In this document: one piece after another, positions 2,019 through 64,000 of the stretch
Numbering within the stretch: position 1 is the first letter of the stretch
Layout: the number at the start of each line of letters is the position of its first letter
Source: Mobula birostris
Lineage: Eukaryota
Assembly: GCF_030028105.1 (NCBI RefSeq)
Contig: NC_092376.1
Coordinates: 76,618,935-76,682,934, forward strand
DNA length: 64,000 bases
Direction: 5' to 3'
The notes under the pieces: model-generated
Database searches by the model: none
What the model saw: the letters and a program-made list of their open reading frames with translations, nothing else
What the model was told of the DNA's origin: nothing
Program-made: the position numbers and the translations under genes

Positions 2019-4909
2019 GTGAAAGAAGTGCATGGAGTAAAGCCAGATCTAACATACAGAGAGGCTTTGAGGAAAGAGAAGCAGAATAAACAGTGTAAAG
2101 ACAGTAAGGTAGAAGGGCTGAAATGTGTGTACCTCAATGCAAGAAGCATCAGGAACAAAGGTGATGAACTGAGAGCTTGGATACATACATGGAATTATGA
2201 TGTAGTGGCCATTACAAAGACTTGGCTGGCACCAGGGCAGGAATGGATTCTCAATATTCCTGGATTTCAGTGCTTTAAAAGGGATAGGGAGGGTGGAAAA
2301 AGGGGAGGAGGGGTGGCATTACTGGTCAGGGATACTATTACAGCTACAGAAAGGGTGGGTAATGTAGCAGGATCCTCTTTTGAGTCAATATGGGTGGATG
2401 TCAGGAACAGGAAGGGAGCAATTACTTTACTGGGGGTATTCTATAGGCCCCCTGGTAGCAGCAGAGATACAGAGGAGCAGATTGGGAGACAGATTTTGGA
2501 AAGGTGCAAAAATAACAGGGTTGTTATCATGGGTGACTTTAACTTCCCTAATATTGATTTGCACCTGATTAGTTCCAAGGGTTTAGATGGGGCAGAGTTT
2601 GTTAAGTGTGTCCAGGATGGATTCCTGTCACAGTATGTGGACAGGCTGACCAGGGGGAATGCCATACTAGATCTAGTACTAGGTAATGAACCGGGTCAGG
2701 TCACAGATCTCTCAGTGGGTGAGCATCTGGGGGACAGTGACCACCGCTCCCTGGCCTTTAGCATTATCATGGAAAAGGATAGAATCAGAGAGGACAGGAA
2801 AACTTTTAATTGGGGAGAGGCAAATTATGAGGCTATAAGGGTAGAACTTGCGGGTGTGAATTGGGATGATGTTTTTGCAGGGAAATGTACTATGGACATG
2901 TGGTCGATGGTTAGAGATCTCTTGCGGGATGTAAGGGATAAATTTGTCCCGGTGAGGAAGATAAAGAATGGTAGGGTGAAGGAACCATGGGTGACAAGTG
3001 AGTTGGAAAATCTAGTCAGGTGGAAGAAGGCAACATACATGAGGTTTAGGAAGCAAGGATCAGATGGGTCTATTGAGGAACATAGGGAAGCAAGAAAGGA
3101 GTTTAAGAAGGGGCTGAGAAGAGCAAGAAGGGGGCATGAGAAGGCCTTGGCGAGTAGGGTAAAGGAAAACCCCAAGGCATTCTTCAATTATGCGAAGAAA
3201 AAAAGGATGACAGGAGTGAAGGTAGGACCGATTAGAGATAAAGGTGGGAAGATGTGCCTGGAGGCTGTGGAATTGAGCGAGGTCCTCAATGAATACTTCT
3301 CTTCGGTATTCACCAATGAGAGGGAACTTGATGATGGTGAGGATAATATGAGTGAGGTTGATGTTCTGGAGCGTGTTGATATTAAGGGAGAGGAGGTGTT
3401 GGAGTTGTTAAAATACATTAGGACAGATAAGTCCCCGAGGCCTGACGGAATATTCCCCAGGCTGCTCCATGAGGCAAGAGAAGAGATTGCTGAGCCTCTG
3501 GCTAGGATCTTTATTTCCTCGTTGTCCACGGGAATGGTACCAGAGGATTGGAGGGAGGCGAATGTTGTTCCCTTGTTCAAAAAAGGTAGTAGGGATAGTC
3601 CGGGTAATTATAGACCAGTGAGCCTTACGTCTGTGGTGGGAAAGCTGTTGGAAAAGATTCTTAGAGATAGGATCTATAGGCATTTAGAGAATCATGGTCT
3701 GATCAGGGACAGTCAGCATGGCTTTGTGAAGGGCAGATCGTGTTTAACAAGCCTGATAGAGTTCTTTGAGGAGGTGACCAGGCATATAGATGAGGGTAGT
3801 GCAGTGGATGTGATCTATATGGATTTTAGTAAGGCATTTGACAAGGTTCCACATGGTAGGCTTATTCAGAAAGTTAGAAGGCATGGGATCCAGGGAAGTT
3901 TGGCCAGGTGGATTCAGAATTGGCTTGCCTGCAGAAGGCAGAGGGTGGTGGTGGAGGGAGTACATTCAGATTGGAGGATTGTGACTAGTGGTATCCCACA
4001 GGGATCTGTTCTGGGACCTCTACTTTTCGTGATTTTTATTAACAACCTGGATGTGGGGGTAGAAGGGTGGGTTGGCAAGTTTGCAGATGACACAAAGGTT
4101 GGTGGTGTTGTAGATGGTGTAGAGGATTGTCAAAGATTGCAGAGAGACATTGATAGGATGCAGAAGTGGGCTGAGAAGTGGCAGATGGAGTTCAACCCGG
4201 AGAAGTGTGAGGTGGTACACTTTGGAAGGACAAACTCCAAGGCAGAGTACAAAGTAAATGGCAGGATACTTGGTAGTGTGGAGGAGCAGAGAGATCTCGG
4301 GGTACATGTCCACAGATCCTTGAAAGTTGCCTCACAGGTGGATAGGGTAGTTAAGAAAGCTTATGGGGTGTTAGCTTTCATAAGTCAAGGGATAGAGTTT
4401 AAGAGTCGCGATGTAATGATGCAGCTCTATAAAACTCTGGTTAGGCCACACTTGGAGTACTGTGTCCAGTTCTGGTCACCTCGCTATAGGAAGGATGTGG
4501 AAGCATTGGAAAGGGTACAGAGGAGATTTACCAGGGTGCTGCTGGTTTAGAAGGTATGCATTATAATCAGAGATTAAGGGAGCTAGGGCTTTACTCTTTG
4601 GAGAGAAGGAGGATGAGAGGAGACATGATAGAGGTATACAAGATAATAAGAGGAATAGATAGAGTGGATAGCCAGTGCCTCTTCCCCAGGGCACCACTGC
4701 TCAATACAAGAGGACATGGCTTTAAGGTAAGGGGTGGGAAGTTCAAGGGGGATATTAGAGGAAGGTTTTTTACTCAGAGAGTGGTTGGTGCGTGGAATGC
4801 ACTGCCTGAGTCAGTGGTGGAGGCAGATACACTAGTGAAGTTTAAGAGACTACTAGACAGGTATATGGAGGAATCTAAGGTGGGGGCTTATATGGGAGGC
4901 AGGGTTTGA
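2019..4909 (+). pseudogene. CR1 ORF2: APE endonuclease plus reverse transcriptase; 1-bp frameshift near 4541
   Basis: APE motifs YLNARSI, GDFN and SDH; RT motifs QHGF, DFSKAFD, PQGSVLGP and FADD. The C-terminus continues in another frame (4556..4909). The usual AITETW reads AITKTW, so the catalytic Glu is lost. Confidence 0.93.
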
Positions 4910-5084
4910 GGGTCGGCACAACATTGTGGGCCGAAGGGCCTGTACTGTGCTGTACTATTCTATGTTCTATGTTCTGTGTTCTATATTAATTTACGAAGGT
5001 TCTCGCAATTAGATCTCAAACCAATGAAAGAACTAAAGTTGAGATCTGCACTGTAAAATAATCAAATGCAACTTTCCATTGTAG

Positions 5085-5151
5085 TGTACAGAAAGATCCT
5101 GATACAAAAGGTATACATGTCATCTCTACAGTGTTCAAGATTACAGCCAGT
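5085..5151 (+). CDS. CFAP300: CFAP300 (C11orf70) penultimate coding exon, 67 nt
   Basis: ttgtag acceptor and gtaagt donor. Encodes (S)VQKDPDTKGIHVISTVFKITAS, similar to the recalled CFAP300 C-terminal region. Joins the 11952 exon in frame (phase 0). Confidence 0.88.
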
Positions 5152-5589
5152 GTAAGTATTAAGTTCCTACAGAACTATGTTGATTGCAGGATGAGCTAAA
5201 ATGCTGACTTAAAGATAGAAGACTAAGAATTAAATTTGGCTATATTAGAAGGTGAACATCTATTCACACATAAACCTTAGTACAAATCTGAACTAATATG
5301 AAGTAATAGTATTAATATCTAGATTGGAGTAGTAGACATAAAATTAAACACAGCTCTTCTTTGTTTGCTATTTTTTACTTGCTGGTAATTTCTCACTCTC
5401 TTTCTAATGTAAACTTGCCTAGGCCTGGAATGAACACTCCTACTAATATGAAACTGGTCCACAGAAATTAACGGATCAGGACATAAGTGAATTTCCAGAA
5501 CTAAATCAGATTGAGATTATCCACATTGAAGACAATATTTCTTAATAATGAAACAAGGGGAGCAAAGTATGCATAAATTTATAGAACCC

Positions 5590-6000
5590 ACACTGCACCT
5601 AATAGATCATTTTCCTGTCAATAGGGCTGGAATACAGGAGTAGCAATTTCATTACAATGAGCTTTAGTTAGGCACCATCTATGATATGTATTCATCTTCT
5701 GTACCACATCTCAAGAAAGCTATACAATTCCTGGAAATAGTATAGGAAATGCAATGTACTTTCAGTATTTGAAGGGTTAAATTATAATGCAATTTCAGTT
5801 GTATTCATTTGGGATTATCAGGTTGAACAGAAATCTACTTGAAGTGTTTGAAATGATAGCATCCAACGGTACAGACCCAGTAAAACTGAACAAATCCAGA
5901 ACAATGGAGCACTATCCTAAAATGGCTAAGCATCTAGGAATGAAATTAGGAAACATATTTTTTACACAAAGAGTAGTGGAACAAACTTTATACCTGACTG
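5590..6000 (+). mobile_element. Old, degraded CR1 3' fragment
   Basis: Remnant peptides LLEVFEMI and FFTQRVV resemble the CR1 ORF2 C-terminus. Confidence 0.6.
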
Positions 6001-6549
6001 AATTATAAAGACTTGGAAAGTTCTAACCTTTATCAGTTGTATGTACCAAAATTACTGATTCTACCTGTTTGTACTTAAATAACTAAAATGTTCCAGCATA
6101 ATTTTAGAATAAAACACATTGTAGCCTCTGGTTTAAGCTCTTAACCTGCCTGAGTCAATAATCCCAAATATTTGAGGGGGTCCATTCTTTACTTTAGTTT
6201 TTCCATCTCCAGCCAGTAATCATACTGGCATTTGTTTGCAGTTGCATTAAATATACAGTTCAAACTGCATAATATCAGTAATCCACCTGAAGACCCTGTC
6301 ATCCATTTGGTCTCCAATCAGGATAAGGCTAGGAGACTGCTGTAATCTTAGTGTGAGCATTCTGTGATATTGAATATTTAGGACATTACCATGGAGGGAT
6401 TTTTTTGGTATAAATGTTCCTATCTTAAAAACAATTACGACAGATGACAACTCTGCTGTTTAATACATGTATAAACAACAGAGTTGGGAAGGATTAAATT
6501 ATTTGACAGGGAAATGTTACTCAGAAAAGATGGAGGGAGGTACAGTGAA

Positions 6550-7117
6550 ATAGAAGCATAGAAACATAGAAAACATACAGCACAATACAGGCCCTTTGGC
6601 CCACAAAGCTGTGCTGAACATGTCCCTACCTTAGAACTACCTAGGCTTTACCCATAGCCCTCTATTTTTCTAAGCTCCATGTAGCCATTCAGGAGTCTCT
6701 TAAAAGACCCTATCATTTCCACCTCCACCGCCACAGCCGGCAGCCCATTCCACGTACTCACCACTCTCTGCGTAAAAACCTTACGCCTGACATCTCCTCT
6801 GTACCTACTTCCAAGCACTTTAAAACTATGCCCTCTCATGCTAGCCATTTCAGCCTTGGCGAAAAGCCTCTGACTATCCACACGATCAATGCCTCTCATT
6901 ACCTTGTACATCTCTATCAGGTCACCTCTCATCCTCCATCGCTCCAAGGAGAAAAGGCCAAGTTCATTCAACCTATTCTCATAAGGCATGCTCCCCAATC
7001 CAGGCAACATCCTTGTAAATCTTCTCTGCACCCTTTCTATCGTTTCCACATCCTTCCTGTAGTGAGGTAACCAGAACTGGGCACAGTATTCCAAGTGGGG
7101 TCTGACCAGGGTCCTAT
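6550..7117 (-). mobile_element. 5'-truncated CR1 (ORF2 C-terminus plus tail)
   Basis: YRTLVRPHLEYCAQFW...RRFTRMLPGL...TQRVV; microsatellite tail (catagaaa repeats on +) at ~6550-6580. Confidence 0.9.
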
Positions 7118-7700
7118 AAAAATAAAGAAGAAAAACTAAGACATTCCAGAATGCAGGATATATATAGACATGAATGCAAGAGTACATTTTACCTCTAGAA
7201 AAAGAAGTACGGTAGATGAAATTAAGGCATTAATTAACACATGGTATTATGACTATTATGATATTACTGTCACAGTCATGGTATAAAACAAGAGCAGGAC
7301 TGGCAGTTTAATATTCCAGGGTAAAGAATCCTCAGGTATGACTTGGAGAGTTAAAAGAGGAGGTGGCATTGCAATATTAATTAAGGAGTCTAAAAGTTAT
7401 GTTAGAAGACTCTTCAAATAAAGGAATATGAATACAATTAAGAAACAAAAAAGAGATGACTATTTTGTTCTGGATGTAACCACAGACTTCTCAAAATTCA
7501 TTGGGAGATAGAGGAGAAATTTATGGGTAAATCACAGAGGGATGAAAGAATAATAGGCTATAGTAGAAGGGGGTTCCACTTTCCCCAATATTAACTGGGA
7601 TTGCCTGGGTGTGAAAAGACTTGTAGAGGGTGGAGTCTAGATGAGATTTTTGAGCTTTTTGTAGTCCAGAAAGAGAAAGCAAGTACTGGACCTAATCTTA

Positions 7701-9790
7701 GACCATGAGATTTTGGAGTAGAATTTAGGTCACTTGGCCCATCAAATCTGCTCCATCATTCCATCCTGGCTGATTTATTATTCCTCTCAACCCTATTCTC
7801 CTGCCTTCTCCCTGTAATCTTTGACATCCTGTCTAATCAAGAACTCATCAACCTCTGCTTTAGATTTATCCAATGACTTGGCCTCCAACGCTATCTGTGG
7901 CAATAAATTCCACAGATTCACCACCCTCTGGTTGCAGAAATTCTTCCTCATCTCTGTTCTAAATTGACATCCCTCTATTTTGAGACTGTGCCCTCTGGTC
8001 CTAGAATCCTCTACTCTTGGAAACATCCTCTTCACATCCATTCTATCTTGGCTTTTCATTCCTGGTATCATTCCTGTGAACCTCCTCTTGACCCTCTCCA
8101 ATGCCAGCACATCTTTTCTTAGATAAGTGGCACAACAATTCTAGCAATACTCCAAGTGCAGTCTGACCAATGCCTATAAAGCCTCAGCATTGCATCCTCA
8201 CTTTGTATTCTAGCCCTCTCAAAATTAATGCTAACATTGCATTTACCTTATTTACCATTCACTCAACCTGCAAGTTACCTCATAGGGAATTCTGCACAAG
8301 GACTCCCAAGTCCCTCTACATTTATGATTTTTGAGTTTTCTCTCCATTTAGTAAATAGTCTACGCCTTTATTCCTTTTACCAAAGTGCGTGACCATACAT
8401 TTCCCTACACTCTATTCCAACTGATTTGCTCATTCTCTTTACCTGTCTAAGTCCTTCTGCAGTCTCCCTGCTTCCTCAATTCTACCTACTCCTCAATACT
8501 ACCTACCCCTCTACCTACAGTATCATTGTGTCATCCGCAAACTAGGCCACAAAACCATTAATTCTGTCATCCAAATTATTGACATACAATATGAAAAGGA
8601 GGGGTCCTGAAATTTATCCCTGCAGGACACCACTAGTCACCGACAGCCAACGGGAAAAGACCCACTTTATTCCCATTCTTAGTTTCCTGCCGGTCAACCA
8701 ATCTTCTATCCATTCTAGTGTTTTTCTTGTAATACCATGGGCTGCTGTTAAGCAGCTTCATTGCAGTGCCTGGTCAAAGGCCTTCTGCAAATCCAAGTAA
8801 ACAACATCCACTGCCTGTTATTTCCTCAAAGAATTCCAACAGATTTGTCAGGTAAGATTTCCCCTTAATCTCCCATGATGACTGTGGCCCATTTTGTCAA
8901 GTGCTTCCAAGTATCCAGAAGCCTCATCCTTAATAATGGACTCCCAACGTCGCCACAACCATGAAATTAGGCTAACAGGCCTATAATTTTCTTTCTTCTG
9001 CCTCCCTCCCTTCTTAAAGAGTGAAGACACATTTGCAATTTTTCAGTCCCCCGGAACTATTTCAGAACGTAGTGATTCTTGAAAGATCACTACTAATACC
9101 TTCACAATCTCTTCAGTTACCTCTTTCAGAACTCTGAGGTGTAGTGCATATCTTATCCACCTTCAGACGTTTCAGCTTCCCAAGGACCTTCTCCTTAATA
9201 ATAGCAACTATGCTCTCTTCTGCCCCCTGACACGCTCAAATATCTGTCATATTGCTAGTATTTTCTACAGTGAAGACTGCCACAAAATTCTTATTAAGTT
9301 TTCCATCATTTCTTCGTCTCCTATTGCTACCTTTCCAGCGTCATTTTCTAGTGGTTCGATATCCACTGTTGTGTCTCTTTTACTCTTCATATGTCTGAAA
9401 AATCTTATTGTATCGTCTTTTATATGATAGGTCAGCTTATCTCCATATTTCATCTTTTCTCTCCTTATAGCATTTTTAGTTGCCTTCTGTTGATTTCTAA
9501 AAGCTTCCCAATCCTCTAACTTCCCATTAATTTTTTGCTATATTATATGCCCTCTTTTTTGCTTTTATGCTGTCTTTGACCTCCCATGTTAGTCACAGTT
9601 GCATCATCATCCTCTCCTTAGAATACTTCTTCTTTGGGATGTATCTATCCTGTGCCTTCCCAATTGCTCCCAGAAGCTCCAGCCATTCCTGTTCTGCCGT
9701 CACCCCTCCTAGCGTCCCCTTTCATTCAACTTTGGCCAGCTTCTCTCTCGTGCCTCCGTAATTCTCCTTACTGCATTGTAATACTAATGA
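7701..9790 (-). mobile_element. CR1 ORF2 fragment with 3' end, degenerate
   Basis: Minus peptides LFKKGGRQKKENYRPVSL and LERVKRRFTGMIPGMK...RTRGHSLKIEG...QRVVNLWNLLP. Confidence 0.88.
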
Positions 9791-16629: not shown

Positions 16630-19600
16630 ATAAAGGAAATTACAATCGCATGAGAGGGAACTGGTCGAAGTTAATTGGAAAAGGACATTTGCAGGAAAGA
16701 CAGCAGAGCAGCAACGGCTGGACTTACTGCAAAAAAAACGAAGGAAGTGCAAAACAGATATATTCCAAATAAGAAGAAATTTTCAAAGGGAAGAAGGACA
16801 CTACCATGGCTGACAAGTGAAGCCAGTGCCAAAGTAAAATCAAATGAGAGAGCGTACAAGGAAGCCAGAGCTAGTGGTAAGATAGAGGATTGGGGTGCTT
16901 TTAAAAACTTGCAGAAGGAAACTAAGCAGGTCATTCGGAAGGAAAAAATGAATTATGAGAGGAAGCTGACGACTAATATCAAAGAAGATACTAAAAGCTT
17001 TTTTAAGAATATAAAGGGTAAAAGAGAGTCAAGGGTAGATATAGGACCAATAATACAAAATGACGCTGGAGCAGAATGGCAGCTTAAATCAAATCTAAGA
17101 TCTTTCCAACATATCTGAATTGATAAGGGGAGAAAGAAAGCCCCGCTGCGGAGCCTGTGGAAGAGGGAGGTGCGGCGCGCGGCTCTCCGACACGTGCGCG
17201 TGGCGGCGAGGTGACGCGGGGCCTCGTGCGGGCGAAGCGGCGAATATGATGAAGGTTCTGGAAGAGATACGGGAAATCCAAAAAGATATAAAACAACAAC
17301 TCAGTGATATCAAGTCAGGCTCGCCAACGTCAATCAGAAAATAGCGGTGGCAGAGACTCGAATTGAGAAGGTGGAAGACCGCGTGCAAAACGTGGAACAG
17401 ATACTAAGTAAGACGATAAAAATATTAAATCAAGAGGAAAGTAAATTGCTTGACCAGGAGGGAAGATCGCGACGGAAAAATATCAGGATTTATAATGTTC
17501 CCGAAGGAGCGAAGGGAGTATCGATGATGGAGTTTGTGGACAAGCTACTGCGGGAGGCGCTGGAGATTCCCCCGAATATGGAGATGGAAATAGAAAGGGC
17601 GCCCCGTTCACTTGTTCCAAGGCCTCCCGGAGACAGACAAAGTAAACCGCGATCCATTGAACTTAAATTTCTCCGATTCCAAGGCGGAGATTCTACGAAG
17701 GGCCTGGGGTAAGAAGAGGGTTTTTTGGAACGTGAAGTTAATATACTTCGATCATGTTTAGCCCCCCGGCGGTCCTACAGAAACGGAAGGAATATTCCGA
17801 AGCAAGATGAATATTAAAGCAAGAAAAGATTAAATTCCAAACCCCGTACCCTTCTAAACTGAGGGTATTTTACCAAGAAGGGATACGACTGTACCAGACG
17901 GTGGAAGAGGCGACTACAGACATGAACAACAGAGGACTGTCCATTAGCGTGGTCAAACCTGGGGAAAGTCTGGCTGAACAGTTATCCCGAGCTGCTTGGG
18001 AAATAGTAAGAGAACCGAGAAAGCAAGGGACGGTAAAAGGACGAGAGAAGGATATTAGGAAGAGACTGTGAGTTCTCCGAAGCCAACCCTCACCTCCTCC
18101 AAAAGAGCCATAAGGTTTGGCTAACTTTAAAAGTGCTGATAAACCAAACGGAAGCAAAAATAGACGGTGATATACCTATCTCGAGAAATACGTGTTATAA
18201 CGTGGTTTTTATATTACTCAATTTTTTAAGAAAATCATTTATTCATTACTTTTCCCCCACCTAAATGAGAATATATACATGGGAGGAATCATTTCTGTGT
18301 AATGGACATAGTTTTTTTTAACTTACTTTTATAGGTACTGCAACGGGGGGGGCGAGGGGGCCTCAACTCACAGGTAGGAGGGACTATCCCCCACGGCTAG
18401 ACTTTTCTTCTAGCCCAACCCAGGGTCATCTAGATACCCCGGCCTTGGAACCACACCTCCCTTACCTTTCTTTTTATTATTCACTTTTCTTGGTTCTTAC
18501 TTGTTCAGGGAGTAGATCGATTAAGTTATATCCTGCAAATTTCAATAATATACTAACTTAGAGAGTAAGACCATATATTTTGGGTATATACCTCAAGAAT
18601 GGTTTAAAAGAGATAAATATAAATATTTACTGAATGTACTGCTGGTGACTGGTAAAAGGACCCTTACCAGGAAATGGTTATTTCGGGAGAGCCCAACTTT
18701 AAATGCATGGATGGAAATTACAATGGACATTTACAAAATGGAGAAGATAACATCTGCTAATCATAAGTTGGAACAATTTTATTCATACTGGAAAAAATGG
18801 TTTAACTACATAACATCTTATAGGCCTGATTTTATTCTCAAAATCAATGAATATGTTGTTTAAAAAGTCACTCCCTACTCTGTACATGGTTTTCTTCTTT
18901 CGATTGTTCTTTCTTTCCTCTTTTTGTAAGAGTATACGTCAGATAAATAGTATGTGGAGATTTGTGACAAATATGCTAATATGATATATATGTACTGTAT
19001 GTGAAATACATCTTATGGAAATGTTTGTTTGATGATGAAATTCTATAAAAAATAAATTACAAAAAAAACAAAATGACGCTGGAGATATTGTAATGAGATG
19101 GCAGAGGAACTGAATGCATATTTTGCATCAGTCTTCACAGTGGAAGACACCTGCAGTATACCGGACATTCAAGAGTGTCAGAGAAGTGAAGTTTGTGCAG
19201 TGAAAATTACGACTGAGAAGGTGCTCAGGAAGCTTAATAGTCTGAAGGTGGATAAATCTCCTGGACTTGATGGAATTCACCCTCAGGTTCTGAAGGAAGT
19301 AGCTGGAGAGATTGTGGAGGCATTAACGATGATCTTTCAAGAATCAATAGAATCTGGCATTATACCGGATGACTGAAAAATTGCAAATGTTACTCCTTTA
19401 TTTAAGGAGGGTGGGAGGCAGCAGAAAGGAAGCTATAGACCTGGTAGCCTGACATCAGTGGTTGGGAAGTTGTTGAAATCGATTGTTAGGAGTGAGATTA
19501 CAGAATACCTGGAGGCAAATGACAAGATAGACCAAAGCCAGCATGGTTTCCTGAAAAGAAAATCCTGCCTCACTAACCTACTGCAATTTTTTGAGGAAGT

Positions 19601-20822
19601 TACAAGCAGGGTAGACAAAGGAGATGCAGTAGACATGGCATACTTGGATTTTCAGAAGGCCTTTGACAAGGTGCCACACGCGAGGCTTCTCAGCAAGATA
19701 GGAGCCAATGGAATTACAGGGAATTTACTAGCGTGTGTGGAGCATTGGCTGGTCAGCAGAAAACAGAGAGTGGGAATAAAGGGATCCTATTCCGGCTGGC
19801 TGCCGTTTACCAGTGGAGTTCCACAGGAGTCGGTGATGGGACCGGTGCTTTTTATGATGTATGTCAATGATTTGGACTACGGTATCAATGGATTTGTGGC
19901 TAAATTTGCCGATGATACAAAGATAGGTGGAGGAGCGGGTAGTGTTGAGGAAACAGAGAGCCTGCAGAGAGACTTAGATAGTTTAGGGGAAAGGGCAAAG
20001 AAGTGGCAAATGAAATACAATGTTGGAAAGTGTATGGTCATGCACTTTGATGGAAGAAATAAAAAGGCAGAATATTATTTAGATGGCGAGAGAATTCAAA
20101 GTGCAGAGATGCAAAGGGACTTGGGTGTCCTTGTGCAAGATACCCTGAAGGTGAACCTCCAGGTTGATTCAGTGATGAAGAAGGCGAATGCAATGTTGGT
20201 ATTCATTTCTAGGGGTATAGAATATGAAAGCAGGGATCTGATGTTGAGGCTCTATAAGGCACTCATGAGACCACACTTAGGGTATTGTGTGCAGTTTTGG
20301 TCTGCTTATTTTAGAAAGAATATACTGATATTGGAGAGGATACAGAGACGATTCACAAGAATGATTCCAGGAATGAAAGGGCTACCATATGAGGAACATC
20401 TGGCAGCTCTTGGGCTGTATTCCCTGGAGTTCAGGAGAATGAAGGGGGATCTCATAGAAATATTCTGAATGTCAAAAGGCCTGAACAGATTAGATATGGC
20501 AAAGCTACTTCCCATGTTAGGGGTTTCTAGGACAAGAGGGCATGACTTCAGGATTGAAGGATGTCCTTTTAGAACTGAGATGCGGAGAAATTACTTTAGT
20601 CAGAGGGTGGCAAATCTGTGGAATTTGTTGCCACAAGCGGCTGTGGAGGCCAGGTCATTGGGTGTATTTAAAGCAGAGATAGATAGGTTAGCCAGGACAT
20701 GAAAGGGTATGGGGTGAAAGCAGGGGAGTGGGAATAACGGGAATAATTGGATCAGCCCATGATTGGCAGAGCAGACTTGATGGGCCAAATAGCCTACTTC
20801 TGCTATATCTTATGGTCTTAAT
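16630..20822 (+). mobile_element. 5'-truncated CR1 ORF2 interrupted by an L1 insertion
   Basis: ORFs 16675..17118, 19098..19376, 19458..20468 (RT with FADD) and 20469..20702 are colinear CR1 ORF2 pieces. The tail tcttatggtctta is at ~20810-20820. Confidence 0.92.
17072..19067 (+). mobile_element. L1-clade element with ORF1 and only the extreme 3' end of ORF2
   Basis: 17-bp TSD acaaaatgacgctggag (17055-17071 and 19068-19084), AATAAA and an A-rich tail. L1 ORF1p motifs EGRSRRKNIRIYNVPEG, EIERA.R, PRSI and YPSKLRV are present. The 18645..18863 peptide resembles an L1 ORF2 C-terminus. Confidence 0.85.
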
Positions 20823-23885: not shown

Positions 23886-24410
23886 GAGGTTGGATGAACA
23901 ATACCTCATATTCCGTCTGAGTAGCCTCTAACTTGATGGCGTGAACATCAATTTCTCCAATTTCTGGTAACTTCTACCCTTTCCCCCCTTCTCTCTGTTC
24001 CTGTTCCCCATTCTGGTTACCCTCTCACCCCATCTCTTCTCCTGCCCATTACCTCTTTCTGGTTCCCTCCTCCTTCCCTTTCATCCACCACCACCTCCTG
24101 TTTGATTTCTTCTTCTTCAGCCCTTTACGTCTTCCACCTATTCCCTCCCAGCTTACTTCATCCCCTTCTACACCCCCCCTCACCTGGTCTCACATATCAC
24201 CTGCCAGCTTGAACTCTTTCCTATCCACCACCTCCCCCGCAACCTTCTTCTTCTGCCTCCTGCCTCCTTCCATTCCAGTCCTAATGAAGGATCTTGGTTT
24301 GAAATGTCAACTGTTTATTCCCCTCCAGAGATGCCGCTTGACTTGTTGAATTCCTCCTGCATTTTGTATATGTTACTTAAGATTTCCAACATCTATATTA
24401 TCTTTTTTTG
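23886..24410 (+). mobile_element. PLE 3' end plus pLTR with a degenerate hammerhead motif (24276-24313)
   Basis: RLDEQYLIFRLSSL*LDGVNINFSNF*, a pyrimidine-rich tract, then CAGTC-CTAATGA-A...GAAATGTC-AACTG. Confidence 0.8.
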
Positions 24411-30690: not shown

Positions 30691-32454
30691 AGCACCAGAA
30701 ATGTTGTGGTCAATTGGCAAACCACAAATTCAGATTGAAGTAAATTGGAATAGAACAGTAGATGTCACACTGGCAGGCTGCTTTGAAATAAACATCTAGA
30801 GGTAAAAGCACAGAGGATGGTTCCAAAGGTAATTTAAAGATAAAAGCAAAGGTTCATTGTACTGTATCAGGTAAAAGTGGTAATTGCTGGTTAAACAAAT
30901 AGGCAGGGATGTGAAAGATTGCACCATTAAACTCAGTAGTTTCCCGTCGTCTGTACTTTTTGCCTGGCCTGCTGAGTTCTTCCAGCATTTTGTGTGTGTT
31001 GCTTGGATTTCTAGCATCTGCAGATTTTCTCTTGTTTGTGATTGAAGTGTCCCTTAATATTTGTATTTTAATCTATGCACTCTCTCTTTTATTCATTTCA
31101 GGATAAGAATTTCATTGGTTTGACCTTTTATTCTATATTGAAGAAGGGTGAACAACAAATCATTGTTTAGTTTGTAAGCAAACATTAAGTGCCTCTTCCT
31201 CTGTGCGTTTTTCTCCTAATGTTACCCAATGTAGTTCACGGAAAACGAATATCTATTCTAACAAATATCTGTTCGTAAACCATCTACTAAAGTAGATATT
31301 AAAAATATTCTCATCTGAATTACCGTTTCGCTCACCTCGGTAAACTCGAATGAATTCCAGGGAGTTTTGTGCCTGCGTGTGGTCCCAGGGGTGTGTGCGT
31401 GTGTGGTGTGTATGGGGGGCGGGGGGGGAGAGGGAGGATGTAGGGGGCGGTTCAGCTTCAGCTAATAATAAACGCTAGGCCAAATCTGGCTTCCAAATTT
31501 GTTTTCTTTTCTGCAAAGTTTGGCTATCCTGCTGGGCATCAGAAGTAAACGCAAATGTTAAAGCAAGCCTAACGCAGCCCGATTAGGGGTAACTGTTAGG
31601 ACGGAAGGGTGGCCTTTGGGATACCAAGTTTTCAGTTACGAGTTGAGGATTTTGACCGCTTGATAGGAAATGTCACAAACGGTTCTTTATGGTTTGGTTA
31701 ATAATTCTTTTTCACCGATTCGGGACGAATGGATAATTTCAGCGATGAAACGATGACAAGAAAGGTACCCTTCCCCCAACCTCAAGTATTGTGGCCTCAA
31801 AAAAGCCTCAGGAAAGCGATAACGCTGGGCTACATTTTTTGAAAACAGAAAAACATTCAACATTTTTATGCAACCAACTGTATCGCATTTGTTTCAGCCT
31901 TAGTGGCACGCTTTTATTGTAATAGTTACCATTTTAAGTACAATTGATTGATTTTGCTTCAACTGAATCCGCATGGCTCTGTATACAGTCGACGCGCCAA
32001 ACGAGACGTCGGGGAAAAGGAAACACGTCTGCTCAAGCCGAGATCTGATCGAGGTGTCACTGATTTTCTGACGGCCAGCCCAACACACATCAAACGATAA
32101 ACCATTTCAGGCGAAACTTTGTGATTAGACGATGGTTAGAAATTAATTTTTCATTACGGTATCGGGCGGACAAATCTTTTGAGAGAAAATCCAGCCTATC
32201 TTTCTTTATATTTCCCTTTTCAGTCTGTTAAGTGATGTGCATTAACGGAGAGCTGTGACAACCTGTGGCAGATTCTGTAAATGATCCACACTTACTCTGC
32301 TCGTTTCTTATCAAATGGCTGGGCGTTTTCTGCCGTGTAATGCGTTGTATAACAATAATAGCATTGATTACGGTTCGGAAAACGCGAAGGGAACCAGACG
32401 CAAAAGTTGCACTGATCTTTCCGAGTGAGGTAAATGCGACCAGATTCCCAGATC

Positions 32455-32710: not shown

Positions 32711-33271
<561 letters not shown>

Positions 33272-38789: not shown

Positions 38790-39255
38790 GAAACAAGAAA
38801 ATCTGTAGATACTGGAAGTCCAAGTAACACACAGAATGCTGAAGGAACTCAGCAGATCAGGCAGCATCTATGGAAAAGAGTACAGTCAATATTTTGGGCC
38901 AATACCCTTCGGCAGGACAGGAGAAAAAAAGCTGAGAAGTAGATTTAAAAGGTGGGGGGTTAGAGGGAGAGAGAGAGAAAGACAAAGTGATAGGGGGAGG
39001 TATGAAATAAGGAGCGGGAAAGTTGTTGAAAGAGACAGAAGGCCATGGAAGAAAGAAAAAGGGTGAGGAGCACCAGAGGGAGGTGATGGGCAGGCAAGGA
39101 GATAAGGTGAGAGAAGGAAAAAGGAATGGAGAATGGTGAAGGGGGGGGTTTGGGGGGCATTACTGGAAGTTCGAGAAATTGCTGTTCATGCCATCAGGTT
39201 GGAGGCTACCCCGTCGGAATATAAGATGTTGTTCCTCTGACCTCATTGTGGCCAA
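38790..39255 (-). mobile_element. PLE 3' end/pLTR with a degenerate hammerhead motif (38883-38920)
   Basis: Same family as 62689-63847. The minus strand reads CTGCCGA-AGGGTATTGGCCC-AAAA. Confidence 0.82.
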
Positions 39256-44879: not shown

Positions 44880-45410
44880 ATCGACTTCTCGTGTCTGATT
44901 GAAATTCCCATTCTTGTTCCGACATGTTGGTCCACGGCATGCTCCTTTGCCAAGATGAGGCCACACTCAGGGTGGAGGAACAACATCTTGTATTCCATCT
45001 GGGTAGCCTGCAACCTGATGGCATGAATATCGATTTCTCCTCCCAGTAAAAAAAAATCTCCCCCCCTCCCATTCTCTACTCTAACATTTTACCCCTCTCA
45101 CCTGCCTATCACCTCTCCCCGGGTCCCCTCCTCCTTCCCATTCTCCTATGGTCCACTCTCCTTTGGCATTCCTTCCTCTTCTCTCCTTTACCTTTCCTAC
45201 CCACCTGGTGTCACCCATCACCTTCCAGCTAGCCTCCTTCCCCTCCTCCCACCCCACCTTTTTCATTCTGCTGTCTTCCCCCCTTGCTTTCCGGTCCTGA
45301 AGAAGGTTCTTGGCCGGAAATGTTGACTGTTTATTCATTTCCATACATGTTGCCTGACCTGAAGAGTTCCTCCAGCATTGTGTGTGTGTGTGTGTGTGTT
45401 TGTGTCTGAT
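44880..45410 (+). mobile_element. PLE 3' end/pLTR with a hammerhead-like motif (45292-45329)
   Basis: HGMLLCQDEATLRVEEQHLVFHLGSLQPDGMNIDFS, then CGGTC-CTGAAGA-A-GGTTCTTGGCCG-GAAATGTT-GACTG. Confidence 0.85.
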
Positions 45411-57966: not shown

Positions 57967-58690
57967 AGAGGCCAGGAAGCATCAATGGAAAAGAGTACAG
58001 TTGACGTTTTGGGCAGAGACCCTTCATCAGGACTGGGAAAAAGAAAAGATGAGACAGTGTAAGAAATTGGGGGGAGGGGAGTATGAAACACAAGATGATA
58101 GGTGAAACCGGGAGGGGAGAGGGGTGAAGTAAAGAGCTGGGAAGTTGGTGAAAGAGATACAGGGCTGGAGGAGGGGGAATGATAGGAGATGACAGAAGGC
58201 CAAGGAAGAAATAAAAGGGGGAGGAACACCAGAGGGAGGTGATAGATAGATAAAGTGAGAGGGAAATTAGCATGGTGAACATTATTGGAAGCTTGTAAAA
58301 TCAATGCTCAGACAATCAGGTTGGAGGCTAGCCAGATGGAATATAAGGTGTTGCTCCTCCAACCTGAGTGTGGCCTCATCACGACAGTAGGGGAGGCCAT
58401 AGACTGTGACATGCCAGAATGGAAAGTGGAATTAAAATGGGTGGCCACTGGGAGATTCTGCTTTTTCTAGAGGATAGACTGTAGGTGCTCAGTGAAGCGG
58501 TCTCCCAATCTGCGTTGGGTCTCACTGATATACAGGAGGCCACACCGGGAGCATTAGATACAGTAGATGACCGCAACAGACTCACAGGTGAAGTGTTGCC
58601 TCAACTGGAAGGACCGTTTGGCACCCTGAATGGTAGTGAGGGAGGAGGTGTAGCACTTGTTCTGCTTGCAAGCATTAGTGCCAGGAGGGC
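57967..58690 (-). mobile_element. PLE GIY-YIG end plus pLTR with an inactivated hammerhead motif (57998-58035)
   Basis: Minus DNA encodes IYCI*CSRCGLLYISETQRRLGDRFTEHL. The hammerhead reads CAGTC-CTGATGA-AGGGTCTCTGCCC-AAAACGTC (GAAA changed to AAAA). Confidence 0.87.
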
Positions 58691-62180: not shown

Positions 62181-62790
62181 TTGTATGGTCAGTGTGAATC
62201 AATCAGTGGTTGGGATTACACACGTGGTGCAAAGAGCCTGATGACCTAAGGGCTCCGAATAATGTTACAAGATAGGTTGACAGAAGATTTAGTAGGTTAA
62301 TTGGTCATTGTAACTTAGGCTAGTGTTAAGTAGGTGGGTTACTGGGCCGGAAAGGCTGTGCTGTATCTCTAAATTTTAAAAAAAGTGACAAATAAGGTCT
62401 GATAGAGCAGGGTGGCTAAAAGAAGGAATGTATTGCTCCATGGAGGTGATTTTAGTTTTGAAGATCCCGTAAATTACCTTGCTTAATAGCCTGCACTAAG
62501 GATGGCTGAAAGCTGTAATGATTGAATGGTAAGCACCATGAAGCATTCGATAGTTTAGGATGGGGAAAGGAGAAGGTGAGATTGGAGGACAATGACTTCC
62601 TGCTTTCTTAGCAGCAGCCAAGACCAGAAGTTCAATATTCCTGGGAAAATTGAGGTGGGAAAATGAAAATAAAGGAACAAAGATGAGGAACGCAAACACG
62701 AGGAAATCTGAAGATGCTGGAATTTCAAGCAACACACATAAAAGTTGCTGGTGAACGCAGCAGGCCAGGCTGCATCTCTAGGAAGAGGTA

Positions 62791-62827
62791 CAGTCAATGT
62801 TTCGGGCCGAGACCCTTCGTCAGGACT
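62791..62827 (-). ncRNA. Hammerhead ribozyme motif with the helix III palindrome mutated
   Basis: AGTC-CTGACGA-A-GGGTCTCGGCCC-GAAA-CATT-GACT. Confidence 0.6.
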
Positions 62828-63756
62828 AACTGAAAGAAGAGCTAGCAAGAGATTTGGAAGTGGGACGGGGAGGGGGAGATCCAAATTGATAGGAGAAGAC
62901 AGGAGGGGGAGGGATGGAGCCAAGAGCTGGACAGGTGATTGGCAAAAGGGATATGAGAGGATCATGGGACAGGAGGCCCAGGGAGAAAGAAAAGGGGGAG
63001 GGGGGGAAACCAGAGGATGGGCAAGGGGTATCGTGAGGGGGGGACAGAGGGAGAAAAAGGAGAGAGAGAAAAAGAATGTGTGTGTGTGTGTATATAAATA
63101 AATAACAGATGAGGTACGAGGGGGAAGTGGGGCATTAGCGGAAGTTTGAGAAGTCAATGTTCACGCCATCAGGTTGGAGGCTACCCAGACAGAATATAAG
63201 GTGTTGTTTCTCCAACCCGAGTGTGGCTTCATCTTTACAGTAGAGGAGGCCGTGGATAGACATACCAGCACGGGAATGGGACCACTGTGTGGCCACTGTC
63301 CGCCAGAGTAAGCAGGATCTCCCAGTGGCCACACATTTTAATTTCACATCCCATTCCCATGCTGATATGTCTATCCACGGCCTCCTCTACTGTAAAGATG
63401 AAGCCACACTCAGGTGTGGGTAGCCTCCAACCTGATGGTGTGAACATTGACTTCTCAAACTTCCGCTAATGCCCCACCTCCTCCTCGTACCCCATCCGTT
63501 ACTTATTTATATACACACATTCTTTTTCTCTCTCTTTCTCTCTCTGTCCCTCTCACTATACCCCTTTGCCCATCCTCTGGGTTCCCCCCCCCCTCCTTTT
63601 CTTTCTCCCTGGGCCTCCTGTCCCATGATCCTCTCATATCCCTTTTGCCAATCAACTGTCCAGTTCTGGGCTCCATCCCTCCCCCTCCTGTCTTCAACTA
63701 TCATTTTGGGTCTCCCCCTCCCACTTCCAAATCTCTTACTAGCTCTTCTTTCAGTT

Positions 63757-63792
63757 AGTCCTGACGAAGGGTCTCGGCCTGAAACGTCGACT
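63757..63792 (+). ncRNA. Minimal type I hammerhead ribozyme motif with an intact core
   Basis: Stem I AGTC/GACT, CTGACGA box, stem II (A)GGGT-CTCG-GCCT, GAAA, palindromic ACGT, and cleavage triplet GTC (cut after 63788). Confidence 0.78.
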
Positions 63793-64000
63793 GTATACCT
63801 CTTCCTATAGATGCTGCCTGGCTTGCTGCGTTCACCGGCAACTTTTAAAGATGAACCTTGAGAAATCAATTTTTTAAAAAAATGTGGTTGAGTTTATGGT
63901 ATTTAACGTACTGAAAAGTGTTATTGTTAACAAATAGTGTTGGTCTGTGTAAAGTTTGGTCTTGTATGTTGCATACCATTTTTAAAATACCTTTAGTTTA

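What the first reader, a model, noticed from the sequence alone, without database searches (positions are those of the whole stretch)
62739..63847. ~1.1 kb Penelope inverted repeat in the YAP1 intron with a hammerhead motif at each outer end
Seen: two ~0.5-kb arms are reverse complements (roughly 90% identical by eye; the right arm lacks ~27 bp near 63415), separated by a ~67-nt spacer. Each arm ends in a hammerhead motif. Established: PLEs often insert with inverted terminal segments and carry hammerheads, and long intronic inverted repeats form dsRNA that ADAR edits and can influence back-splicing. Inference: in YAP1 pre-mRNA the sense hammerhead has its own antisense copy 1 kb upstream, so a long hairpin could mask it. 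That would be a self-silencing ribozyme cassette, and a transcript from either strand would carry one hammerhead plus its masking strand.
Basis: partly seen in the sequence, partly recalled or inferred. Interest (0 to 1): 0.7.

Follow-up and report, generated by a model that had tools for sequence, protein, structure and literature searches.

The report
Head-to-head Penelope insertion in YAP1 intron
This 1.15-kb mirror repeat in a YAP1 intron is one ordinary, lineage-specific insertion of a very abundant Penelope-like jumping gene; its one intact ribozyme motif is predicted to be inactive without a partner and also paired off by the other arm, so it is likely a by-product of how these elements insert rather than a switch for YAP1.

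Summary
The inverted repeat is real and lies in the first coding intron of YAP1 of a ray-like genome. It is a single Penelope-like (PLE) insertion: two 5'-truncated 3' ends joined head-to-head over a 3-nt microhomology, one with the ~37-nt tail and one without, between copies of a 13-bp target. Contigs of two related organisms hold the empty site with one target copy. The 'spacer' is mostly element; the loop is 24 nt. The hammerhead 33-mer has 29,379 exact copies in the genome, and 17 of 40 unselected copies have an inverted partner, so the layout is the family's routine product and is in print (PMC8557442, PMC3846280, PMC4209133). Masking is predicted but adds little: the sense motif is a dimer-type minimal hammerhead with no intact sense partner in YAP1; the antisense one has lost its GUC site; both arms share one intron, so they cannot bracket an exon. 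ADAR editing is plausible and untested. The scan found this layout before (94 notes, at least 31 genomes). Ordinary; interest low.

The parts
62679..62691 (.). Left copy of target-site duplication (13 bp; last C may be shared with the element end)
   Evidence: Identical to the single copy at the empty site in run X14
62692..63298 (-). Left arm: 5'-truncated PLE 3' end (endonuclease C-terminal remnant, 3' UTR/pLTR, hammerhead, tail), antisense to YAP1
62692..62728 (-). ~37-nt PLE 'tail', present on the left arm only (approximate bounds)
   Evidence: Two 3' end classes in family copies; PMC11167929 equates the tail with the stretch between two RT start sites
62791..62823 (-). Degenerate minimal hammerhead: core kept, palindromic ACGU and GUC triplet changed to ACAU/AUU
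   Evidence: sequence
63282..63285 (-). 4 nt replacing 13 nt of the family sequence near the 5' end of the left arm
63296..63298 (.). Head-to-head 5'-5' junction, 3-nt microhomology (CTG) shared by both arms
   Evidence: family copies read CTG before the right-arm start; table 7
63299..63322 (+). 24-nt unpaired loop; element sequence present only in the right arm
63296..63846 (+). Right arm: 5'-truncated PLE 3' end, tail-less (ends ~11 nt before the usual short end), sense to YAP1; endonuclease remnant frameshifted by a 26-nt deletion after 63415
63756..63793 (+). Minimal type I hammerhead with all core nucleotides, extra A after A9, 4-bp helix II (G10.1-U11.1 wobble), loop-less palindromic ACGU helix III, predicted cut after C63788
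   Evidence: features per PMC4209133
63847..63856 (.). Right copy of target-site duplication, lacking 3 nt relative to the left copy and the empty site
32771..33271 (+). YAP1 first coding exon (host gene; intron of ~68.8 kb follows and holds the insertion)

Best explanation
This is a single insertion of an endonuclease-bearing Penelope-like retrotransposon, two truncated 3' ends joined head-to-head between duplicated target letters, likely made in one integration and likely without a selected role for YAP1. Shown: element identity, one tailed and one tail-less end, 13-bp target duplication, empty site in two relatives, 3-nt junction microhomology, commonness of the layout. Inferred: the element protein nicked both strands ~13 bp apart, primed two cDNAs from the two internal start sites (one giving the tail), both stalled ~550-600 nt in, and their ends were joined by microhomology. 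Predicted: in YAP1 pre-mRNA the arms form a ~500-bp hairpin that buries the sense hammerhead, which would anyway need a second copy or the element protein to cut; the hairpin would probably be edited by ADAR and discarded with the intron.
For: Empty site: one 374-nt contig of run X14 lies on 62552-62691 and 63876-64000 with 21 letters between; its letters, and those of a 715-nt contig of run X9, read through one copy of the target. Family size: 14,482 + 14,897 exact 33-mers, control 0. Layout frequency: 12 pairs in 11 of 28 best-matching loci, 11 of 12 with exactly one tail, 9 of 12 with a shared flank word of 8 nt or more; in 40 unselected anchors 17 have an abutting inverted end, 15 of these 17 with one tail (my tally of the printed chains), 11 of 40 have a partner with target-duplication score 8 or more against 0 of 400 random flank pairs; among the first 100 listed exact matches 6 neighbours within 4 kb are head-to-head, 1 tail-to-tail, 3 tandem, with ~4 in all expected. 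The arms share 6 non-CpG variants, more than 97% of 694 unrelated pairs. Longer copies carry RT-like and GIY-YIG-like coding with CX4CxxC and CCHH-type motifs. Literature passages: PMC8557442, PMC3846280 (inverted pLTR, tail at one end, TSD), PMC11167929 (both strands cut and extended; two RT start sites; HHR inactive without protein), PMC4209133 (single minimal HHR shows no cleavage; opposite-strand pairs 100-700 bp apart).
Against: Arm-to-arm distance (0.065) is close to the between-locus mean (0.071 +/- 0.015), and each arm ranks its partner only 9th and 11th of 41, so a common template RNA is not proven. The right target copy lacks 3 nt and the right end is ~11 nt short, so that end was altered or formed atypically. 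23 of 40 anchors showed no abutting inverted end, 9 of them with a target duplication around a single arm, so two-ended insertion is common, not obligatory. The two-cDNA mechanism is not distinguished from fold-back self-priming. Neutrality is inferred; no RNA data.
Confidence: 0.87

Rival explanations
1. One reading: a retained, functional self-silencing ribozyme cassette in which the hairpin (and its editing) controls cleavage or splicing of YAP1 pre-mRNA.
For: Sense hammerhead is the only one of 27 hammerhead-like copies in 263 kb around YAP1 with full core and ACGU-H site; pairing with the left arm predicted; Penelope copies are heavily edited in lizard and a chimaera shows hyper-editing (PMC5625713, passages).
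Against: Absent in two relatives; arms have drifted 4.2-4.6% from the family majority like other copies (mean 4.0%); intact cores are common (29,379 exact copies); no intact sense partner in the gene; 29 kb and 38 kb from the nearest coding splice sites; same-intron pairs favour linear splicing (PMC11263572).
Confidence: 0.04
2. Two independent insertions, the second targeted into the 5' end of the first in opposite orientation.
For: Arms are not each other's nearest copies (ranks 9 and 11 of 41); family density is high (one exact motif per 137 kb).
Against: One target duplication encloses both arms and none lies inside; clean 3-nt junction; strong excess of head-to-head over tail-to-tail neighbours and one-tail rule.
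Confidence: 0.03
3. Single insertion, but the mirror arm arose by fold-back (self-priming) copying of one cDNA or of an antisense template, as proposed in PMC3846280, not by two primed cDNAs.
For: 6 shared non-CpG variants between arms; short loop with 3-nt microhomology and a 13-to-4 nt replacement next to the junction.
Against: A fold-back copy of the tail-less arm cannot supply the tail, and both outer ends fall on the two fixed start sites in most pairs; several pairs share no variants (L002, L028). This rival changes the mechanism only, not the verdict of an ordinary insertion.
Confidence: 0.25
4. Assembly artefact (fold-back read or misjoin).
For: The central junction is not among the listed contig pieces, and outer-junction contigs reach only 26-30 letters into the repeat.
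Against: Arms differ by 6.5% plus several indels; target duplication matches the empty site; both outer junctions are seen in contigs of a second organism (X5).
Confidence: 0.01

Closest known systems
EN+ Penelope-like element insertions with an adjacent inverted 5'-truncated copy, a 30-40 bp tail at one end and a TSD (PMC8557442 passages; PMC3846280 passages)
   Same: Head-to-head 5'-truncated copies, tail on one end, flanking target duplication, empty site, hammerhead in the terminal repeat.
   Different: Target duplication 13 bp here and 8-18 bp in family pairs (8-10 bp in the rotifer examples read); no full ORF in this insertion; ray family not assigned a Repbase name here.
Neptune/Nematis-type PLEs (CX2-5CxxC linker plus CCHH GIY-YIG; PMC8557442)
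   Same: Longer family copies show CKRNKCYTC linker, VIY-CxxC-YIG core and C-terminal endonuclease after the RT.
   Different: No RT tree was built, so Neptune versus Nematis is not settled.
Minimal dimer-type hammerheads of metazoan PLEs (PMC4209133, parts 1-2 of 4 read)
   Same: Extra nucleotide after A9, palindromic 15.2-16.2, no helix III loop, opposite-strand pairs a few hundred bases apart.
   Different: Helix II is 4 bp with a G-U at 10.1-11.1 in the sense copy; activity untested.
Poseidon element of Anolis (PMC11167929, main text read)
   Same: Two 3' end classes separated by a tail; consistent with both strands being cut and extended.
   Different: Different clade; there the RT start lies in the 5' ORF, here the copies extend from the 3' terminal repeat into the endonuclease coding end.
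Intronic inverted Alu pairs (PMC11263572 passages)
   Same: Long intronic duplex that would attract ADAR; same-intron pairing favours linear splicing.
   Different: Made in one insertion rather than by two; 24-nt loop; carries a ribozyme motif.

Membership tests
EN+ Penelope-like elements | C-terminal GIY-YIG endonuclease with CCHH motif | tested here: met
   Motifs visible in longer copies; Pfam GIY-YIG only weak, E 0.03, below cut-off; homologues of the upstream part carry PF01541 and PF26215; the window's arms hold the C-terminal remnant
EN+ Penelope-like elements | Reverse transcriptase upstream of the endonuclease in one ORF | tested here: met
   L007 frame with GVAMG and RYIDD motifs; 176 homologues at E<=1e-30, most listed ones annotated PF00078; direct Pfam scan of this 280-aa piece gave 0 families
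EN+ Penelope-like elements | Direct or inverted pLTRs with optional 30-40 bp tail at one end | tested here: met
EN+ Penelope-like elements | Target-site duplication of variable length | tested here: met
   13 bp, empty site in X14 and X9; right copy lacks 3 nt
EN+ Penelope-like elements | RT groups with PLE/telomerase RTs in a tree | not tested
   No tree built
Neptune/Nematis clades | CX2-5CxxC linker between RT and EN | tested here: met
   CX4CxxC in L003, L007, L008, L013, L019, L021, L028, L030
PLE minimal hammerhead | Conserved core CUGAnGA / GAAA with NUH triplet and palindromic 15.2-16.2 | tested here: met
   Right copy met; left copy not met
PLE minimal hammerhead | Self-cleavage as dimer or with protein | not testable with these tools
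   Cofold of two right copies forms the intermolecular helix at the ACGU palindrome but in a competing fold; needs bench assay
Canonical (Rfam) hammerheads | Reaches gathering score of an Rfam model | tested here: not met
   0 matches in the window
Back-splicing reverse-complement pairs | Arms lie in different introns flanking an exon | tested here: not met
   Both arms lie in the intron 33272 to ~102041; unannotated exons not tested
Conserved intronic regulatory ribozymes | Kept at the orthologous site across related species | tested here: not met
   Absent in organisms C and E, present in A and B

The most novel reading that the evidence does not exclude
Head-to-head PLE insertions are self-quenching: each buries its own hammerhead and its own repeat sequence in a local hairpin, so they are tolerated in introns better than single sense copies, and ADAR unwinding of this hairpin frees the one intact YAP1 hammerhead to cut as a trans-dimer with one of the thousands of other family transcripts, tuning YAP1 in this ray lineage only.
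Probability: 0.04. Interest if true: 0.6.

Novelty: new member of a known kind. Interest (0 to 1): 0.12.

Why it matters
As a YAP1 feature it probably does not matter: it is a young passenger. Its use is as a clean, empty-site-validated example of PLE integration. The family statistics (exactly one tailed end in 15 of 17 unselected pairs while 21 of 40 anchors are tailed; chance about 0.001 by hand binomial) say the two ends of one insertion are coupled, one from each RT start site, which fits a dimeric protein copying from both nicked strands and gives a genomic test of the still open PLE integration mechanism. The tail-at-one-end pattern itself is already in print. Thousands of such hairpins would also make this family a main source of intronic double-stranded RNA in these fishes.

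Tried and rejected
Rfam scan: 0 matches. RNA evidence: no RNA holder listed; two runs guessed to be RNA laid nothing on the right flank; neither is evidence on expression or editing. Differences listed inside the arms come from other family copies and were not read as editing. Monomer folds of the hammerheads are no better than shuffles and adopt a non-catalytic pairing (z -0.10, 0.24). The stretch of L067 taken as a full-length reference held only ~880 nt of the element, so 8 of 40 anchors ran off it and their 5' ends stayed unresolved; 17 of 40 is a lower bound. The 40 anchors are 40 of the first 44 listed matches on one contig end (4 skipped because they lay in an earlier stretch), not a genome-wide random sample; the 28 loci were chosen for likeness to the right arm. 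The second half timed out and was redone. Direct Pfam scan of the RT piece found nothing. Doubt that the gene might be WWTR1 was rejected (listed named hits are YAP1 or unnamed). Intron versus intergenic counts could not be made without annotation. Paper searches listed no paper on this ray family or locus; the library lacks most subscription papers and no supplements were read.

Full report
Observation. The window is G000:C8:76618935-76682934. Inverted arms run from 62739/63847 inward. Aligned, they are 85% identical with gaps and differ by 6.5% substitutions over 494 columns; the right arm lacks 26 nt after 63415. The region folds as one long hairpin at -970 kcal/mol. Hammerhead-like motifs lie at 63761 (+) and 62823 (-); Rfam gives 0 matches. 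The host gene is YAP1 on the + strand: the ORF at 32771 is 92% identical to a stingray YAP1, and that protein maps to seven coding exons at window-equivalent 32771, 102042, 135423, 158263, 175320, 185923 and 186996. The repeat lies in the first coding intron, 29 kb from its donor and 38 kb from its acceptor.

What it is. Both arms are the 3' end of a Penelope-like element: the right arm begins in the C-terminal part of the endonuclease, and longer copies elsewhere extend into a CX4CxxC linker, a VIY-CxxC-YIG core and RT motifs; the RT piece has 176 homologues at E<=1e-30, most listed ones with RT and PF26215 domains and several with GIY-YIG, while a direct Pfam scan gave only a weak GIY-YIG match. 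The motif set fits the Neptune/Nematis type as defined in PMC8557442 (passages); no tree was built. Family copies end at two places about 37 nt apart; the left arm reaches the far one (tail, to ~62692), the right arm stops ~11 nt before the near one.

One insertion, and a young one. A 374-nt contig of run X14 (organism E) lies on both flanks with 21 letters between, and its letters and those of a contig of run X9 (organism C) read through a single copy of the 13-bp target. In the window the left copy (62679-62691) is whole and the right copy (63847-63856) lacks 3 nt. Contigs of organism A reach 26 letters over the left junction, and contigs of organism B (1.7% different in the left flank) reach 26 and 30 letters over both outer junctions, below the tool's 31-letter bar; the central junction is not among the listed pieces. 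Organism A may be the source sample. So the cassette entered once, after the split from C and E (flanks ~9% and ~5% different) and probably before A and B split; the arms' 4.2 and 4.6% distance from the family majority agrees.

How common. The 33-nt hammerhead motif has 29,379 exact copies, control 0. In 28 other best-matching loci, 11 hold 12 head-to-head pairs; 11 of 12 have exactly one tail and 9 of 12 share a flank word of 8 nt or more. In 40 anchors taken in order from the list, 17 have an inverted hammerhead within 8.5 kb upstream and 11 have a partner with target-duplication score 8 or more, against 0 of 400 random pairs; chaining alignments shows an abutting inverted end in 17 of 40, 15 of them with one tail, with 8 unresolved and 9 single arms that carry their own duplication (my tally). 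YAP1 itself holds a second pair of this family in a later intron. The layout is in print: PMC8557442 (passages), PMC3846280 (passages) and, for opposite-strand hammerhead pairs, PMC4209133 (parts 1-2 of 4).

How it likely formed. Inferred: nicks on both strands ~13 bp apart, two cDNAs primed from the two internal start sites, both truncated, joined by microhomology. This leans on PMC11167929 (main text), where a Poseidon protein cuts and extends both strands, starts at two sites that bound the tail, and is predicted to be a dimer. The arms share 6 non-CpG variants (above 97% of 694 unrelated pairs) but are not each other's nearest copies (ranks 9 and 11 of 41), so one versus two template RNAs, and fold-back self-priming as proposed in PMC3846280, remain open.

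What it does in YAP1 RNA. The sense motif has the full core, an extra A after A9, a 4-bp helix II with a G-U at its base and the loop-less palindrome ACGU, the dimer-type design of PMC4209133, where a single motif showed no cleavage; the Anolis motif needed the element protein. Of 27 hammerhead-like copies in 263 kb it alone keeps core and site, and it is 1 of 9 sense copies in the YAP1 coding span, so it has no intact partner in cis. The antisense motif has lost the palindrome and the GUC. Pairing with the left arm is predicted at 0.94, so masking is likely but redundant. Both arms share one intron, and such pairs favour linear splicing (PMC11263572, passages). Editing is plausible: Penelope is massively edited in a lizard and a chimaera shows hyper-editing (PMC5625713, passages); no RNA data could test it here.

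Verdict. Real, correctly identified as PLE-derived, but an ordinary insertion product with no sign of selection. The scan has 94 earlier notes with these words in at least 31 genomes, one shown from this genome; they are unreviewed and were not used as support. New member of a known kind; interest 0.12.

Noticed in passing
window 32771-33271: The first coding exon of this YAP1 encodes residues 1-168 in one piece; human YAP1 is split after about Q107 (recalled, not checked), so an intron may have been lost or gained.
   Followed up: partly
G000:C8, window-equivalent 177150-179436 (in L031-L050): A second, longer head-to-head pair of the same family lies in a later YAP1 intron; both its hammerheads are degenerate. 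Small pairs of related older families lie at ~93.9 kb and ~101.7 kb, the latter ~300 nt before the next exon.
   Followed up: partly
L051-L090 (G000:C1): Many short arms have their 5' end within about -12 to +8 nt of the hammerhead CUGA, some 20-40 nt upstream of the cut site, which likely marks the RNA start rather than ribozyme cleavage.
   Followed up: partly
genome G000: 29,379 exact copies of one 33-nt minimal hammerhead, more than the 4,000-9,000 motifs reported for coelacanth and Xenopus in PMC4209133; the C-to-T form that gives a G-U at 10.1-11.1 outnumbers the G-C form in the first 100 listed.
   Followed up: no
window 38793-39252, 44906-45387, 57969-58477, 30962-31038, 23888-24320: Older, 65-85% diverged PLE 3' ends with decayed hammerheads in the same window.
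   Followed up: no
window 3531-62176, many pairs: Numerous 65-74% identical oppositely oriented repeat fragments (LINE-like by appearance, not classified), e.g. 8054-9288 with 19120-20378 and 4428-4975 with 6552-7118.
   Followed up: no
L007:3150-3539: A tandem repeat reading as repeated TTTLLRLPS-like units lies in frame in front of the RT piece of this copy.
   Followed up: no
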